This document shows, in pieces, positions 1,601 through 25,072 of a DNA stretch of 34,746 nt (its first letter is position 1; each line of letters opens with the position of its first letter). The notes beneath the pieces are model-generated. The model saw nothing but the letters and a program-made list of their open reading frames with translations, was not told where the DNA came from and ran no database searches. The stretch comes from a virus, in the UHGV virus genome UHGV-0079566. The stretch is one strand, 5' to 3'. A program made the translations under genes and the position numbers.

Positions 1601-1617
1601 AAAATTATTAGTGCAAT
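1601..1617 (-). promoter_or_regulatory. C1-operator-like 17-mer (complement reads ATTGCACTAATAATTTT, 15/17 to the P1 consensus) in a divergent promoter region
   Basis: Plus-strand aaaattattagtgcaat read directly; consensus recalled from P1 literature. Confidence 0.5.
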
Positions 1618-1674
1618 TTTGATTGTGAAATGTATCATTCTGCCCTTAAGTAGGTTCTTCATGAGGAAACAAAA

Positions 1675-1920
1675 TTGGCAGAGCGTGTTGATGATGCAGA
1701 GCTGAGCATGAATCAGTTAGAAGCTCTCAAAGACATGGCCATCGATAACATCAGAAAGCAGGCACAGGTCGTGAGTCAGGTATTTACAGGGAAGTGTCGT
1801 TACTGCAATGAACCGATTGAATCAGGCATCTATTGTGACGCTGAGTGTGCGCAATGGCACAGGGAAGAGCAGGCCGCAAAACAGCGTAAATATGGCATGC
1901 GACCGGCAGGATTTGACTGA
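1675..1920 (+). CDS. Small C4 zinc-finger protein (TraR/DksA-like arrangement C-x2-C-x9-C-x3-C), 81 aa from a TTG start
   Basis: ORF track; GAGGAA Shine-Dalgarno 5 nt upstream of TTG at 1675; motif GKCRYCNEPIESGIYCDAEC. Confidence 0.5.
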   Translation: MAERVDDAELSMNQLEALKDMAIDNIRKQAQVVSQVFTGKCRYCNEPIESGIYCDAECAQWHREEQAAKQRKYGMRPAGFD

Positions 1921-1922
1921 TT

Positions 1923-2501
1923 GTGTTGCGCTTTACTGAGCAAGAGTATCTGGCTTTCAGTAAGCGCAGAAAGAAAGGATGGGTTAAGCCAAAGCCCAAA
2001 AAGGATCCGTTCTTATCACTTGCCCCGGTAAAAGAAGTTTCGCCACATGCGAAGGCGCTTGCAGCACTGGCAAAAAATCCTGATCTGCGAGTAGGAAATT
2101 GCGAGCACTACGAACAGGTTTTCATTTTTGATTACTTCGAGCGCAATTACCCTGAAATTTATGAGCTGTTGCATGCAACGCCTAACGGAGGGAAGCGTTC
2201 AAAAGCAACCGCCGGGAAAATGAAGGCTGAAGGGCAGAAAAAAGGTTATCCGGACATGAGTCTCGATAAAGCATGCGGTATTTATCACGGCATGCGAATT
2301 GAGCTTAAAGAACCAAATGGTAAAGCCCCGACGAAAGAGCAGATCGCCTGGATGCACAGGCTTAGAGAGGAAGGTTACTACGTCGTTCTTGCGTATGGTG
2401 CAGAACAAGCGATAACCGCCATCCTGGAATACATAAGCCTTAAAAAGGGTGAGGCTATTGAGCATGTATTGAACGGCGACAAGTGGTTGTACGCTGCGTG
2501 A
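1923..2501 (+). CDS. VRR-NUC-like PD-(D/E)xK nuclease domain protein (192 aa)
   Basis: ORF track; motifs HATPNGG, GYPDM and IELK-x-NGK...Q..W typical of VRR-NUC; GTG start 2 nt after the upstream stop. Confidence 0.65.
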   Translation: MLRFTEQEYLAFSKRRKKGWVKPKPKKDPFLSLAPVKEVSPHAKALAALAKNPDLRVGNCEHYEQVFIFDYFERNYPEIYELLHATPNGGKRSKATAGKMKAEGQKKGYPDMSLDKACGIYHGMRIELKEPNGKAPTKEQIAWMHRLREEGYYVVLAYGAEQAITAILEYISLKKGEAIEHVLNGDKWLYAA

Positions 2502-2507
2502 AATAAT

Positions 2508-2524
2508 AAATTAATTAGTGCATG
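2508..2524 (-). promoter_or_regulatory. Weaker C1-operator-like site (13/17) with the ATTAGTGCA core
   Basis: Plus-strand aaattaattagtgcatg; same core as the sites at 1601 and 22458. Confidence 0.35.
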
Positions 2525-2567
2525 TGTGCTCTTTGATGTAGCGCACATTAACATCGGGAGAATAATC

Positions 2568-2723
2568 GTGTCATCCAAGGCTAATTATGAATCGCTGGCA
2601 TCGGTCATGCCGCGTAATGAACAGGAAGCAGATGCTGTAGTGGACCCGGTAATCGCTGAAATGAATGCTCGCCTGGAGGCTGAATTTGCAGCTGAGAATG
2701 AACATACCAACCAGGGCGACTAG
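2568..2723 (+). CDS. Small hypothetical acidic protein (about 52 aa from GTG)
   Basis: In frame with ORF 2526-2723; GGGAG Shine-Dalgarno 6 nt upstream of GTG 2568; start uncertain. Confidence 0.3.
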   Translation: MSSKANYESLASVMPRNEQEADAVVDPVIAEMNARLEAEFAAENEHTNQGD

Positions 2724-3327
2724 GACTGTTTTTTGTGTCGGTAGCGGTCCGTCACTCACTCGTGAGGACTGTGCTGCTATAGAAAAAACTGGCTGTTCAA
2801 TCATCGCGGTTAACAATTCCTGGCAGATGTTCGATGACATTTATGCCTTATACGCCGGTGATTTGTCATGGTGGAAGCAATACGGATCCACCATACCGGG
2901 AGGGAGATTCCGCAAAGTGACAGCCAACCTGGCGGCGGCGAAATCATTTTCGTTGGAGTACAGGCGATATTGTGGACCGGCGGAAGGGGTAAATAGCGGC
3001 GCGCAGGCTATCAGTCTGGCTGCTGAATCAGGGGCTGAAGTAGTGGTATTAGTCGGCTATGACTGTTCTCTGCAAAACGGCCTTCATTGGCATGGCGCGC
3101 ACCCTCAAGCCCTACGGAATCCAACGCAGGTGTCTATTTCAAAATGGCAACAGCAGTTCCTGGATACCCGCAAAAAACACGCAGATTTACATATTTTGAA
3201 TGCAAGTAGGAGCAGTGCAATTCAATGTTTCCCAAGAATAAATTTAGAGGCAGTGATCGCGTTATTATCGTCGGCAGTGGCCCAAGCGCCGCAAACTTTG
3301 TTGCGCCGCGTGGAGTGCCGATTATAG
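2698..3327 (+). CDS. Rossmann-like protein with a G-S-G-P-S glycine loop (paralog 1); tentatively DUF115/Maf-like (MptE-like) fold
   Basis: ORF track frame 2665-3327; motifs VFCVGSGPSL, IIAVN, GVNSGAQAISLA, VVVLVGYDCS; start could be ATG 2665 or ATG 2698. Confidence 0.55.
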   Translation: MNIPTRATRTVFCVGSGPSLTREDCAAIEKTGCSIIAVNNSWQMFDDIYALYAGDLSWWKQYGSTIPGGRFRKVTANLAAAKSFSLEYRRYCGPAEGVNSGAQAISLAAESGAEVVVLVGYDCSLQNGLHWHGAHPQALRNPTQVSISKWQQQFLDTRKKHADLHILNASRSSAIQCFPRINLEAVIALLSSAVAQAPQTLLRRVECRL

Positions 3328-23287: not shown

Positions 23288-23509
23288 ATGGGATATTCAG
23301 CTGCTAAAGTGTCCACTCATCTTGAGCTTGAGAAAAACCGTGGTTACTGGCGGGCAAAAGGGTTTGAGCGTGATAGTTACCAACTGTCATTATCTCGCGG
23401 TGAAGAGAAAATAGAACGCACGCGCGGTCGCTGGCGTTTCTATGACGAGAACCATAAACAGGTAAAGGCAGAGCCGATCCTGTACACTTTACTTAAAACC
23501 ATTATCTGA
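23288..23509 (+). CDS. Small basic hypothetical protein (73 aa) between loxP and cre
   Basis: ORF track; strong GAGGTGA Shine-Dalgarno 5 nt upstream of the ATG; its stop lies 8 nt before the cre ATG. Confidence 0.4.
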   Translation: MGYSAAKVSTHLELEKNRGYWRAKGFERDSYQLSLSRGEEKIERTRGRWRFYDENHKQVKAEPILYTLLKTII

Positions 23510-23516
23510 GTGTTAA

Positions 23517-24548
23517 ATGTCCAATTTACTGACCGTACACCAAAATTTGCCTGCATTACCGGTCGATGCAACGAGTGATGAGGTTCGCAAGAATCTGATG
23601 GACATGTTCAGGGATCGCCAGGCGTTTTCTGAGCATACCTGGAAAATGCTTCTGTCCGTTTGCCGGTCGTGGGCGACATGGTGCAAGTTGAATAACCGGA
23701 AGTGGTTTCCCGCAGAACCTGAAGATGTTCGCGATTATCTTCTATATCTTCAGGCGCGCGGTCTGGCAGTGAAAACTATCCAGCAACATTTGGGCCAGCT
23801 AAATATGCTTCATCGTCGGTCCGGTCTGCCACGACCAAGTGACAGCAATGCTGTTTCACTGGTCATGCGACGGATCCGAAAAGAAAACGTTGATGCCGGT
23901 GAGCGTGCAAAACAGGCGCTGGCGTTCGAACGCACTGATTTCGACCAGGTTCGTTCACTCATGGAAAATAGCGATCGCTGCCAGGATATACGTAATCTGG
24001 CATTTCTGGGGATTGCTTATAACACCCTGTTACGTATAGCCGAAATTTCCAGGATCAGGGTTAAAGATATCTCACGTACTGACGGTGGGAGAATGTTAAT
24101 CCATATTGGCAGAACGAAAACGCTGGTTAGCACCGCTGGTGTAGAGAAGGCACTTAGCCTGGGGGTAACTAAACTGGTTGAGCGATGGATTTCTGTCTCT
24201 GGTGTAGCTGATGATCCGAATAACTACCTGTTTTGCCGCGTCAGAAAAAATGGTGTTGCCGCGCCATCATCCACCAGCCAGCTATCAACTCGCGCCCTGG
24301 AAGGGATTTTTGAAGCAACTCACCGATTGATTTACGGGGCAAAAGATGACTCTGGTCAGCGATACCTGGCCTGGTCTGGACACAGTGCCCGTGTCGGAGC
24401 CGCGCGAGATATGGCCCGCGCCGGAGTTTCAATACCGGAGATCATGCAAGCTGGTGGCTGGACCAACGTAAATATTGTCATGAACTATATCCGTAACCTG
24501 GATAGTGAAACGGGGGCAATGGTGCGCCTGCTGGAAGATGGCGATTAG
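23517..24548 (+). CDS. cre: Cre tyrosine recombinase (343 aa)
   Basis: Protein MSNLLTVHQNLPALPVDATSDEVRKNLMDMF... recognised as Cre, with loxP upstream. Confidence 0.97.
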   Translation: MSNLLTVHQNLPALPVDATSDEVRKNLMDMFRDRQAFSEHTWKMLLSVCRSWATWCKLNNRKWFPAEPEDVRDYLLYLQARGLAVKTIQQHLGQLNMLHRRSGLPRPSDSNAVSLVMRRIRKENVDAGERAKQALAFERTDFDQVRSLMENSDRCQDIRNLAFLGIAYNTLLRIAEISRIRVKDISRTDGGRMLIHIGRTKTLVSTAGVEKALSLGVTKLVERWISVSGVADDPNNYLFCRVRKNGVAAPSSTSQLSTRALEGIFEATHRLIYGAKDDSGQRYLAWSGHSARVGAARDMARAGVSIPEIMQAGGWTNVNIVMNYIRNLDSETGAMVRLLEDGD

Positions 24549-24565
24549 CCGTTCATTTGCGCTTG

Positions 24566-24582
24566 ATTGCTCTAATTATTTG
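24566..24582 (+). promoter_or_regulatory. C1-operator-like site ATTGCTCTAATTATTTG just downstream of cre
   Basis: Read directly. Confidence 0.6.
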
Positions 24583-24598
24583 ATATTTATGGTGACAC

Positions 24599-24910
24599 AT
24601 GCGGAAGGATTTCAAAATAGACGGAAAATATGTGGTGCTGTCTGTAAGCTCTCAAATTCAGTCACCATCTGTCATTGTCACCGTAAAGTTGAGCGATAGG
24701 ATGCCTGATATCGACTCGATATCTGTTGCGTTCCCCGTTAAAAGCATGCGGAGTGCTGAACATTTTGTGATGAATGCAACGGAGGAGGAAGCGCGGCGCG
24801 GGCTTACTAGAGTGATGGGGGAATTTGGCGAACTCCTGGGTAAGGTAAACAATGCCCTTTCAATCAGTTCAGCAAGGTCCAAAGCGTTAACAGCTTCCAT
24901 GATGAAATAA
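24599..24910 (+). CDS. Hypothetical protein (103 aa) in the cra (cre-associated) position
   Basis: ORF track; GGTGA Shine-Dalgarno; identity with P1 cra not verifiable from memory. Confidence 0.4.
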   Translation: MRKDFKIDGKYVVLSVSSQIQSPSVIVTVKLSDRMPDIDSISVAFPVKSMRSAEHFVMNATEEEARRGLTRVMGEFGELLGKVNNALSISSARSKALTASMMK

Positions 24911-24936
24911 AAAAAAGCCTGGCAAGGAGCCAGGCT
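24909..24936 (-). terminator. Hairpin (8-bp stem agcctggc / gccaggct, loop aagga) with an 8-nt U-run only on the minus strand
   Basis: Plus strand reads A8 + stem; the minus strand reads stem + T8. Confidence 0.5.
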
Positions 24937-25042
24937 GCACAAAAGAGCGGGTTTGTATTCCGCATCCAATCAATCAAGAAGGAGTATAGCACACAGGTAC
25001 TGAAGTGAAAAAATGTGATTCGCGATAAACAAAATATCTACC

Positions 25043-25072
25043 ATTGCTCTAATTGATTGCTATAATTTAGCC
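25043..25072 (+). promoter_or_regulatory. Tandem C1-operator-like sites (ATTGCTCTAATTGATTG and ATTGCTATAATTTAGCC), the second containing a -10 TATAAT; candidate ref promoter/operator
   Basis: Read directly; C1/Bof control of ref is established for P1. Confidence 0.6.

What the first reader, a model, noticed from the sequence alone, without database searches (positions are those of the whole stretch)
1601..25072. At least 12 C1-operator-like 17-mers define the repressor regulon across the window
Matches (13-16 of 17) to ATTGCTCTAATAAATTT occur at 1601, 2508, 5225, 5274, 7367, 18184, 22458, 22922, 23005, 24566, 25043 and 25056, always in intergenic or promoter positions. Three of them share a variant core ATTAGTGCA. 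The sites put the mosaic early operons, lpa, coi-c1, and the cra and ref regions under C1 control, which means the acquired accessory genes have been wired into the resident immunity circuit.
Basis: partly seen in the sequence, partly recalled or inferred. Interest (0 to 1): 0.45.

Follow-up and report, generated by a model that had tools for sequence, protein, structure and literature searches.

The report
Known P1 C1 repressor operators
The window is part of a P1-like phage-plasmid, and the repeated 17-mers are the already mapped binding sites of its C1 repressor; the one addition is a likely extra site in front of the lysogeny gene c8, which the reference phages P1 and P7 have lost through a single base change.

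Summary
The window is a P1-like phage-plasmid (96-98% identical to P1 over shared parts). Its C1 differs from P1 C1.100 at one residue; Coi and Lxc are identical.

Site 25056 is not an operator. It matches 11 of 17 bases and is the TATAAT -10 of promoter P2ref.

Site 24566, upstream of c8, is not annotated in P1 or P7, which carry A at the otherwise invariant position 7. Its core is intact in 74 of 80 relatives and in a distant Cronobacter phage, so it is probably an unrecognised operator.

A matrix trained only on seven P1 operators outside the homologous region finds 12 sites at 14.5 bits or more, against 0.29 expected. All lie in or abut the 9.8% of the window that is intergenic.

The "wiring" claim is only partly right. 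The acquired 6.8-kb cargo has no operator of its own. It replaces genes downstream of the ancestral, invariant OpmgT promoter-operator, in a documented variable region.

The parts
1601..1617 (-). O26 (former Op82), a monovalent C1 operator in the divergent gene 26 / pmgL control region. It overlaps the -10 of P2pmgL and the -35 of P1pmgL.
   Evidence: Identical to P1 78528-78544. Scores 24.0 bits with the independent matrix. Promoters conserved.
2508..2524 (-). Oppp (former Op83), upstream of pmgN-pmgO-pmgP-ppp-pmgQ. Carries the variant core CATGCACTAAT.
   Evidence: Identical to P1 79435-79451. Scores 18.2 bits.
5225..5241 (+). OpmgRa (Op86a). Its core is the -35 of PpmgR, which drives pmgR-pmgS.
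   Evidence: Identical to P1 82152-82168. Invariant in 36 loci.
5274..5290 (-). OpmgRb (Op86b), downstream of the PpmgR -10.
   Evidence: Identical to P1 82201-82217. Invariant in 36 loci.
7367..7383 (+). OpmgT (Op88). Its core is the -35 of P2pmgT. It heads the operon whose body has been replaced by non-P1 cargo.
   Evidence: Identical to P1 84293-84309. Scores 24.3 bits. The same 32-mer precedes at least 12 different downstream sequences.
7654..14471 (+). Non-P1 cargo within the OpmgT-headed gene string: PAPS-reductase/SspD-like, two Ead/Ea22, DUF4752, Mom-like and DUF551 genes, plus unknowns. It carries no operator of its own.
   Evidence: No P1 homology. Domains. Best matrix score inside is 9.5-10.3 bits. 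Corresponds to published variable region 8 (PMC9603915).
18184..18200 (+). Olpa (Op94). It overlaps the -35 of Plpa and controls lpa, the activator of late promoters.
   Evidence: Identical to P1 89904-89920. Invariant in 22 loci.
21512..22363 (-). c1, the repressor that binds these operators.
   Evidence: 282 of 283 residues identical to P1 C1.100.
22447..22474 (.). Bivalent operator Oc1ab: Oc1b at 22447-22463 (+) and Oc1a at 22458-22474 (-). It overlaps Pc1 and mediates c1 autoregulation.
   Evidence: Identical to P1 94166-94193. Oc1a is invariant in 111 loci.
22630..22646 (-). Oc1c (Op99c), inside the coi coding sequence.
   Evidence: Identical to P1 94349-94365. Invariant in 111 loci.
22922..22938 (-). 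Oc1d (Op99d), lying between the -35 and -10 of P1coi, which drives imcA-imcB-coi-c1.
   Evidence: Identical to P1 94641-94657.
23005..23021 (+). Oc1e (Op99e), abutting the -35 of P4cre (cra, cre).
   Evidence: Identical to P1 94724-94740.
24566..24582 (+). Candidate operator 'Oc8', 16 nt upstream of the c8 start codon. It is not annotated in P1 or P7, which have ATTGCTATAAT at this position.
   Evidence: Scores 20.5 bits with the independent matrix. Core intact in 74 of 80 loci anchored on the C8 protein; core divergence is 0.006 against 0.29 in the adjacent spacer. An operator is present at the same place in Cronobacter phage JK004.
25043..25059 (+). Oref (Op2a), within the spacer of P2ref. 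It controls ref.
   Evidence: Identical to P1 1962-1978.
25056..25072 (+). Not an operator. This is the TG-extended -10 (TATAAT, 25061-25066) of P2ref.
   Evidence: Matches 11 of 17 bases and scores 6.5 bits. Coincides with the P2ref -10. A at position 7 in the four commonest variants, 80 of 124 loci.
25709..25725 (+). Omat (Op2b), overlapping the ref stop codon, upstream of Pmat and LPmat.
   Evidence: Identical to P1 2628-2644. Scores 18.2 bits.
22474..22683 (-). coi, the C1 inactivator.
   Evidence: 100% identical to P1 Coi.
27952..28200 (-). lxc (bof), the co-repressor that strengthens C1 binding to its operators.
   Evidence: 100% identical to P1 Lxc. Function as stated in the P1 annotation.

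Best explanation
The 17-mers are the dispersed, asymmetric operators of the P1-type C1 repressor in a P1-like phage-plasmid. The window holds 13 operators orthologous to those annotated in P1, plus one further site in front of c8.

In the prophage state, C1 occupies these sites, helped by the co-repressor Lxc and antagonised by Coi. Each site overlaps or abuts the -35 or -10 of a sigma-70 promoter. Occupancy shuts off the early operons (pmgL-M, pmgN-Q/ppp, pmgR-S, the pmgT operon), the late-gene activator lpa, ref and mat, and the coi-c1 and cra-cre promoters. C1 also regulates its own gene through the bivalent Oc1ab.

The non-P1 cargo at 7.65-14.5 kb was not given new operators. It arrived by cassette exchange downstream of the invariant OpmgT/PpmgT module and so probably inherits C1 control by position.

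Basis of each step:
- Shown here: sequence orthology, statistical enrichment, and conservation of operators, promoters and the three regulatory proteins.
- Taken from established P1 biology: C1 binding and repression at these sites.
- Inferred: read-through from PpmgT into the cargo, and C1 binding at the c8 site.
For: The window is P1-like: 96-98% identical to P1, P7, SJ46 and RCS47, and to hundreds of roughly 95-kb E. coli plasmids.

All 13 operators annotated in the homologous part of P1 are present at the orthologous positions with identical 17-mers. The P1 promoters they overlap are conserved with 0-3 substitutions.

C1 is 282 of 283 identical to P1 C1.100, and Coi and Lxc are 100% identical.

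The independent matrix finds 12 sites at 14.5 bits or more against 0.29 expected, all intergenic or at gene ends.

Across IMG/VR relatives, the 11-nt cores diverge by 0-0.01 where the surrounding 60 nt diverge by 0.02-0.14. Oppp (0.09) and Oc1b (0.055) are looser but still below their flanks.

The literature states that P1 has 22 dispersed C1 operators with the asymmetric consensus ATTGCTCTAATAAATTT (PMC8546580).

For the cargo: it has no operator. Its genes are co-directional and overlapping with no strong terminator. At least 12 alternative downstream sequences follow the same OpmgT 32-mer, and most diverge at about 7629-7660, inside the 5' end of pmgT. pmgT-humD is a published variable region (PMC9603915).
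Against: No binding or expression data exist for this element; everything rests on orthology to P1.

Window-versus-P1 conservation of the operators alone is only modestly significant. There are 0 differences in 221 nt where about 4 are expected from the 1.9% flank divergence.

C1 control of the cargo may be incomplete. The corresponding P1 region contains predicted internal sigma-70 promoters (upfM, upfN), a late promoter (hot), a LexA-controlled humD and an autoregulated phd-doc. Genes far downstream of OpmgT are therefore not necessarily C1-dependent.
Confidence: 0.9

Rival explanations
1. The matches are only AT-rich promoter-like DNA. TTGCTC resembles a -35 and TCTAAT a -10, so they recur in intergenic regions without being repressor sites.
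For: Operator cores do double as promoter hexamers: the -35 of PpmgR and P2pmgT is TTGCTC, and the -10 of PkilA is TCTAAT. One listed site, 25056, is indeed just a -10 element.
Against: A null of the same AT-rich intergenic composition gives about 0.06 hits for the 3.4 kb of intergenic DNA, against 11-12 observed. The full 17-mers are identical to the operators annotated as C1 binding sites in P1. Conservation begins exactly at operator position 1, not at the promoter hexamer.
Confidence: 0.03
2. The acquired cargo (7654-14471) is transcribed from its own promoters and is not part of the C1 regulon. Its position behind OpmgT reflects only a recombination hotspot.
For: The region is a known recombination hotspot regardless of regulation (PMC9603915 and PMC6906374). 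One weak promoter-like site faces rightward at 12498-12526. P1's own equivalent region has predicted internal promoters.
Against: The first cargo gene is a hybrid. It keeps P1's PpmgT promoter, leader, small upstream ORF and first ~30 codons. The genes are tightly packed or overlap by 4 nt on one strand. Promoter-like sites are fewer than in shuffles, 12 against 26. No strong rightward terminator lies between 7384 and 15000.
Confidence: 0.25
3. The conserved block at 24566-24576 is conserved only as the extended -10 (TGcTCTAAT) of a c8 promoter. It is not a C1 binding site.
For: P1 and P7 carry TGCTATAAT here, a consensus extended -10. The site is 16 nt from the c8 ATG, so a promoter function fits. 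The P1 and P7 annotations list no operator here.
Against: Positions 1-2 (AT) of the operator, which are not needed for an extended -10, are invariant in 42 haplotypes, while the base just 5' of them varies. TCTAAT lacks the key A at the second -10 position, yet it is the form retained in 74 of 80 loci. The distant phage JK004 has a 24.6-bit full operator at the same place within unalignable flanks. The established P53/Op53 pair shows that promoter and operator functions coexist in exactly this sequence.
Confidence: 0.2

Closest known systems
C1 operator network of bacteriophage P1 (Oref, Omat, O26, Oppp, OpmgRa/b, OpmgT, Olpa, Oc1a-e; GenBank AF234172 / NC_005856, Lobocka et al. 2004)
   Same: All 13 operators of the homologous P1 segment are present at orthologous positions, with identical 17-mers and the same promoter overlaps. 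C1, Coi and Lxc are identical or nearly so.
   Different: The window has a consensus-core site before c8 where P1 has ATTGCTATAAT. Downstream of OpmgT, the genes pmgT through upfO and lxr are replaced by, or diverged into, a 6.8-kb lambdoid-type cargo. The EcoPI res/mod genes are replaced by a SIR2-family gene.
Bacteriophage P7 immC region and operators (AF503408)
   Same: Same C1 and operator system. Op(ref) is annotated at the same place.
   Different: Like P1, P7 carries A at position 7 of the c8-proximal site, in a different flanking haplotype.
P53/Op53 (PkilA/OrepL) promoter-operator of P1
   Same: The operator core TGCTCTAAT provides a TG-extended -10 (TCTAAT) lying inside the operator. 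This is the same arrangement proposed for the c8 site.
   Different: Op53 controls kilA-repL and is experimentally established according to the P1 annotation. The c8 site is untested.
Lambda-type CI operators
   Same: Repressor binding sites overlap early promoters and maintain lysogeny.
   Different: P1 operators are asymmetric 17-mers dispersed over the genome, about 20 per genome, and mostly single. They are not clustered, symmetric, dimer-binding tripartite operators. This comparison rests on established knowledge.

Membership tests
P1-type C1 operators | Asymmetric 17-bp sequence matching ATTGCTCTAATAAATTT, with the near-invariant core ATTGC(T/A)CTAAT. | tested here: met
   Twelve sites score 14.9-24.3 bits with a matrix trained on 7 independent P1 operators, against 0.29 expected. 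Site 25056 fails, at 6.5 bits and 11 of 17.
P1-type C1 operators | The cognate C1 repressor is encoded by the same element, together with its modulators Coi and Lxc. | tested here: met
   C1 is 282 of 283 identical to P1 C1.100; Coi and Lxc are 100% identical.
P1-type C1 operators | Positional orthology to operators annotated or footprinted in P1. | tested here: met
   Thirteen sites map one-to-one onto P1 protein_bind features with identical sequence. Site 24566 has no annotated P1 counterpart.
P1-type C1 operators | Overlaps or abuts a sigma-70 promoter (-35, spacer or -10). | tested here: met
   The P1-annotated promoters P1/P2pmgL, PpmgR, P1/P2pmgT, Plpa, Pc1, P1coi, P4cre, P2ref and Pmat are conserved in the window at the expected offsets. 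Oc1c is an exception, lying inside coi, as it does in P1.
P1-type C1 operators | Physical binding of C1 and C1-dependent repression. | not testable with these tools
   This needs EMSA or footprinting, ChIP or reporter assays. It is inferred from sequence identity with P1 sites.
Bivalent C1 operator (Oc1ab / Obanab type) | Two inverted 17-mers overlapping with an 11-bp offset. | tested here: met
   The pair 22447 (+) and 22458 (-) is identical to P1 Oc1b/Oc1a.
Candidate operator Oc8 (24566) as a C1 operator | Selective conservation of the operator core among relatives, independent of the flanks. | tested here: met
   Core intact in 74 of 80 loci. Divergence is 0.006 in the core against 0.29 in the adjacent 17-nt spacer. 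A 24.6-bit operator sits at the same position in JK004, whose C8 is 50% and C1 77% identical.
Candidate operator Oc8 (24566) as a C1 operator | Prior annotation or experimental description. | tested here: not met
   It is not annotated in P1 or P7. The literature searches found no paper that mentions it. Lobocka et al. 2004 could not be read.

The most novel reading that the evidence does not exclude
c8, the putative lysogeny-establishment gene, belongs to the ancestral C1 regulon through an unannotated operator ('Oc8', window 24566-24582) that also forms the TG-extended -10 of a c8 promoter. The textbook phages P1 and P7 are atypical. A single C-to-A change at the invariant operator position 7, found on two different flanking haplotypes, turns TGCTCTAAT into the consensus TGCTATAAT. 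This probably weakens C1 binding and strengthens the promoter, so c8 regulation inferred from P1 would not represent the family.
Probability: 0.7. Interest if true: 0.3.

Novelty: already known. Interest (0 to 1): 0.17.

Why it matters
The finding mainly confirms that this P1-like plasmid keeps the complete, unchanged C1 immunity circuit of P1. That is useful for annotation but not new.

Two modest points go beyond the reference annotation:

1. An operator directly upstream of c8 appears to be the normal state in the P1 family. It is degenerate only in the two laboratory reference phages. This would revise the regulatory map of a poorly understood lysogeny gene, and it is easy to test.

2. The main variable region of P1-like phage-plasmids (pmgT to humD) begins about 290 nt downstream of an invariant C1-controlled promoter-operator. 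Exchangeable cargo is therefore expected to be silent in the prophage and expressed early on induction or infection. That matters for predicting when accessory genes carried by these elements, including resistance or DNA-modification genes, are expressed.

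Tried and rejected
- **Extra weak matrix hits.** Sites at 7242 (inside pap), 26716 and 26828 (inside the SIR2 gene) score 13-14 bits, a slight excess over chance (3 observed against about 0.4 expected). The two SIR2 sites are not conserved in the 66%-identical SIR2 allele. Site 7242 has mismatches at near-invariant core positions. I rejected all three as operators, so no acquired gene carries its own operator.
- **Rfam scan** of the whole window at gathering thresholds found nothing.
- **Exact 33-mer search** around OpmgT gave only 1 viral contig because it was too specific. 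I replaced it with a 32-mer.
- **First divergence-point script** had an off-by-one error and was redone.
- **First count of the c8 site** was biased, because the search pattern itself required most of the operator. I redid it with loci anchored on the C8 protein.
- **Lobocka et al. 2004** (PMC523184) is not held, so I took the operator list from the GenBank annotation instead.
- **25056 as a second, overlapping Oref half-site** was considered and rejected.

Full report
**Identity of the window**

Megablast places the window in the P1 family of phage-plasmids. It is 96-98% identical over shared parts to P1, P7, SJ46 and RCS47, and to more than a thousand E. coli plasmids of roughly 95 kb. A direct blastn against P1 (AF234172) gives this map:

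| Window | P1 | Content |
|---|---|---|
| 1-7653 | 76928-84579 | gene 25 to the 5' end of pmgT |
| 7654-14471 | none | non-P1 cargo |
| 14472-14818 | 85182-85528 | pmgU |
| 15495-15743 | 86585-86833 | hot |
| 15811-23081 | 87530-94800 | humD to lox |
| 23082-26549 | 1-3468 | lox, cra, cre, c8, ref, mat |
| 26550-27951 | none | replaces res/mod |
| 27952-34746 | 9750-16544 | lxc, ulx, darB |

**Check of the observation**

The consensus ATTGCTCTAATAAATTT with up to 3 mismatches occurs 10 times, against 0.21 expected.

I took the C1 operators annotated in the P1 record (sequences). I built a matrix from only the seven operators that lie outside the part of P1 homologous to the window. This independent matrix finds 12 sites at 14.9-24.3 bits: 1601, 2508, 5225, 5274, 7367, 18184, 22458, 22922, 23005, 24566, 25043 and 25709. 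Three hits at 13.2-14.2 bits follow, and everything else scores below 9.5 bits.

A first-order Markov null with the operators masked expects 0.29 hits at 14.5 bits or more per window. Even a null with the AT-rich intergenic composition expects only 0.6 per 34.7 kb. Eleven of the 12 sites lie almost wholly in the 9.8% of the window that is intergenic, and the twelfth (Omat) straddles the ref stop codon.

**What the sites are**

Thirteen sites map one-to-one onto protein_bind features 'phage repressor C1' of P1, with 17-mers identical to P1:

| Window position | Strand | P1 operator |
|---|---|---|
| 1601 | - | O26 / Op82 |
| 2508 | - | Oppp / Op83 |
| 5225 | + | OpmgRa |
| 5274 | - | OpmgRb |
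| 7367 | + | OpmgT / Op88 |
| 18184 | + | Olpa / Op94 |
| 22447 | + | Oc1b |
| 22458 | - | Oc1a |
| 22630 | - | Oc1c |
| 22922 | - | Oc1d |
| 23005 | + | Oc1e |
| 25043 | + | Oref |
| 25709 | + | Omat |

The P1 promoters that these operators overlap are conserved in the window with 0-3 substitutions. The repressor is 282 of 283 identical to P1 C1.100, and Coi and Lxc are 100% identical. Across IMG/VR relatives, the 11-nt operator cores diverge by 0-0.01 where the surrounding 60 nt diverge by 0.02-0.14. Oppp and Oc1b are looser but still below their flanks.

The published description is 22 dispersed operators with the asymmetric consensus ATTGCTCTAATAAATTT. C1 represses repL and lpa, Coi inactivates C1, and Lxc strengthens its binding (PMC8546580). 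That description applies here without modification.

**The site that is wrong**

Site 25056 (ATTGCTATAATTTAGCC) matches 11 of 17 bases and scores 6.5 bits. It coincides with the -10 TATAAT (25061-25066) of P2ref. The four commonest variants of this site, 80 of 124 related loci, read ATTG(C/T)TATAAT, with A where operators have C at position 7. It is a promoter element, not an operator.

**The site that is new relative to the reference annotation**

Site 24566 (ATTGCTCTAATTATTTG) lies between the cre stop codon (24548) and the c8 start (24599). P1 and P7 have ATTGCTATAAT there, and neither record annotates an operator. phiW39 has the C form.

A first count was 46 C against 7 A in 53 contigs. 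It was biased by the search pattern. I therefore fetched 80 loci anchored on the C8 protein:
- 74 of 80 have an intact ATTGCTCTAAT core, spread over 42 distinct haplotypes.
- The mean minor-allele fraction is 0.006 in the core. It is 0.29 in the 17-nt spacer immediately 5', and about 0.06 in the leader and the 5' end of c8.
- Conservation starts exactly at operator position 1.

In Cronobacter phage JK004, C8 is 50% and C1 77% identical. Its cre-c8 spacer is 23 nt longer and unalignable. It still contains a 24.6-bit operator (ATTGCTCTAATAATTTA) 20 nt before the c8 homologue.

The arrangement mirrors P53/Op53 of P1, where the promoter's -10 is the TCTAAT inside the operator and is preceded by TG.

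I infer that this is a C1 operator overlapping a c8 promoter. In P1 and P7, the C-to-A change produces the consensus extended -10 TGCTATAAT and removes an otherwise invariant operator base. The A allele occurs on two different flanking haplotypes, the P1 type and the P7 type, each of which also has relatives carrying C. I found no paper that mentions this site. Lobocka et al. 2004 could not be read.

**The 'wiring' interpretation**

The non-P1 segment 7654-14471 encodes lambdoid-type early or accessory proteins: PAPS-reductase/SspD-like, two Ead/Ea22, DUF4752, Mom-like, DUF551 and PHROGs of unknown function. It contains no operator; the best matrix score inside it is about 10 bits.

It lies behind the unchanged OpmgT/PpmgT module. 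P1 and the window share the operator, both predicted promoters, a small hydrophobic ORF (7467-7553) and the first ~90 nt of pmgT, and then diverge.

Among 36 IMG/VR loci that carry the identical 32-mer around OpmgT and at least 1.5 kb downstream, plus P1 and the window, the +330 to +1500 region falls into 12 unrelated clusters. Most diverge from the window at about 7629-7660.

The cargo genes are co-directional and often overlap by 4 nt. No strong rightward terminator lies between 7384 and 15000.

pmgT-humD and res-mod are published variable regions of P1-like elements (PMC9603915 and PMC6906374). The cargo therefore most likely inherits C1 control by position, through cassette exchange inside an ancestral operon, not through acquisition of operators. 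Read-through into the cargo is inferred, not shown. The homologous P1 region has its own internal promoters and LexA and Phd/Doc controls further downstream.

**Weak matches**

Three 13-14-bit hits (7242, 26716, 26828) slightly exceed chance. The two inside the SIR2 gene are absent from a 66%-identical allele of that gene at the same locus. Site 7242 breaks near-invariant core positions. I do not count any of them.

**Verdict**

They are the known C1 operator set of P1, faithfully conserved in a P1-like plasmid. The claim that accessory genes were wired into the circuit reduces to the known placement of a variable region behind a conserved C1-controlled promoter.

The only element beyond the reference annotation is the probable operator in front of c8. 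It is a new member of a well-known kind and of modest specialist interest.

Noticed in passing
window 26606-27910 (+), with terminator-like hairpin 27919-27947: A 434-aa SIR2_2-domain protein occupies the slot between mat and lxc where P1 has the EcoPI res/mod genes. Its best PADLOC matches are PDC-S25, ThsA-like and LmuA-like. About 127 PLSDB plasmids carry it in two allelic groups (93% or more, and about 66% identity). The two groups share a 100% identical mat-SIR2 spacer and diverge only a few codons into the ORF, the same 'conserved 5' module, swapped body' pattern seen at pmgT.
   Followed up: partly
L194 (Cronobacter phage JK004, MZ188976) 2432, 3219, 3303, 5958, 8910: A distant P1 relative (C1 77% identical) uses the same operator consensus. 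It has strong sites at the positions equivalent to Oc1a, Oc1d, Oc1e and the c8-proximal site, and one at 8910, upstream of a 185-aa ORF that may be the ref homologue (not checked).
   Followed up: partly
window 7467-7553 (+): A small ORF encoding a 28-aa hydrophobic peptide (MNTAFKIIMAAIYFWLFSITFGGIVAHG) lies between PpmgT and pmgT. It is almost identical in P1 but not annotated in AF234172.
   Followed up: no
window 7416-7438 (- strand): A strong terminator-like hairpin (10 pairs, followed by a T-run on the minus strand) sits in the leader between PpmgT and the first ORF. It faces leftward and is also present in P1. It could stop antisense transcription entering the OpmgT region.
   Followed up: no
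window 2497-2513 (+), next to Oppp at 2508-2524 (-): A weak inverted partner (CGTGAAATAATAAATTA, 8.3 bits) lies at the same 11-bp offset as Oc1b relative to Oc1a, and scores higher than Oc1b (5.8 bits). P1 has an equivalent at 79424 (10.9 bits). Oppp might therefore be bivalent-like, or this may just reflect the self-complementary AAATTT tail.
   Followed up: no
window 8144-9022 (+) and 11229-11726 (+): The cargo behind OpmgT includes a PAPS-reductase-family protein (weak SspD/DndC-like matches) and a Mom-like DNA-modification protein. This suggests DNA-modification or anti-restriction functions expressed early.
   Followed up: partly
window 14819-15810: Relative to P1, pmgV and upfM-upfO are replaced, and lxr (the LexA-regulated gene, leftward in P1) is absent. 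hot is only 85% identical. The humD LexA box (15826-15845) has 2 substitutions.
   Followed up: no
window 24572, with P1 position 1491 and P7 position 1491: The same C-to-A substitution at operator position 7 occurs on two different cre-c8 spacer haplotypes, the P1 type and the P7 type, each of which also has C-bearing relatives. This points either to independent origin or to recombination of a very short tract.
   Followed up: partly
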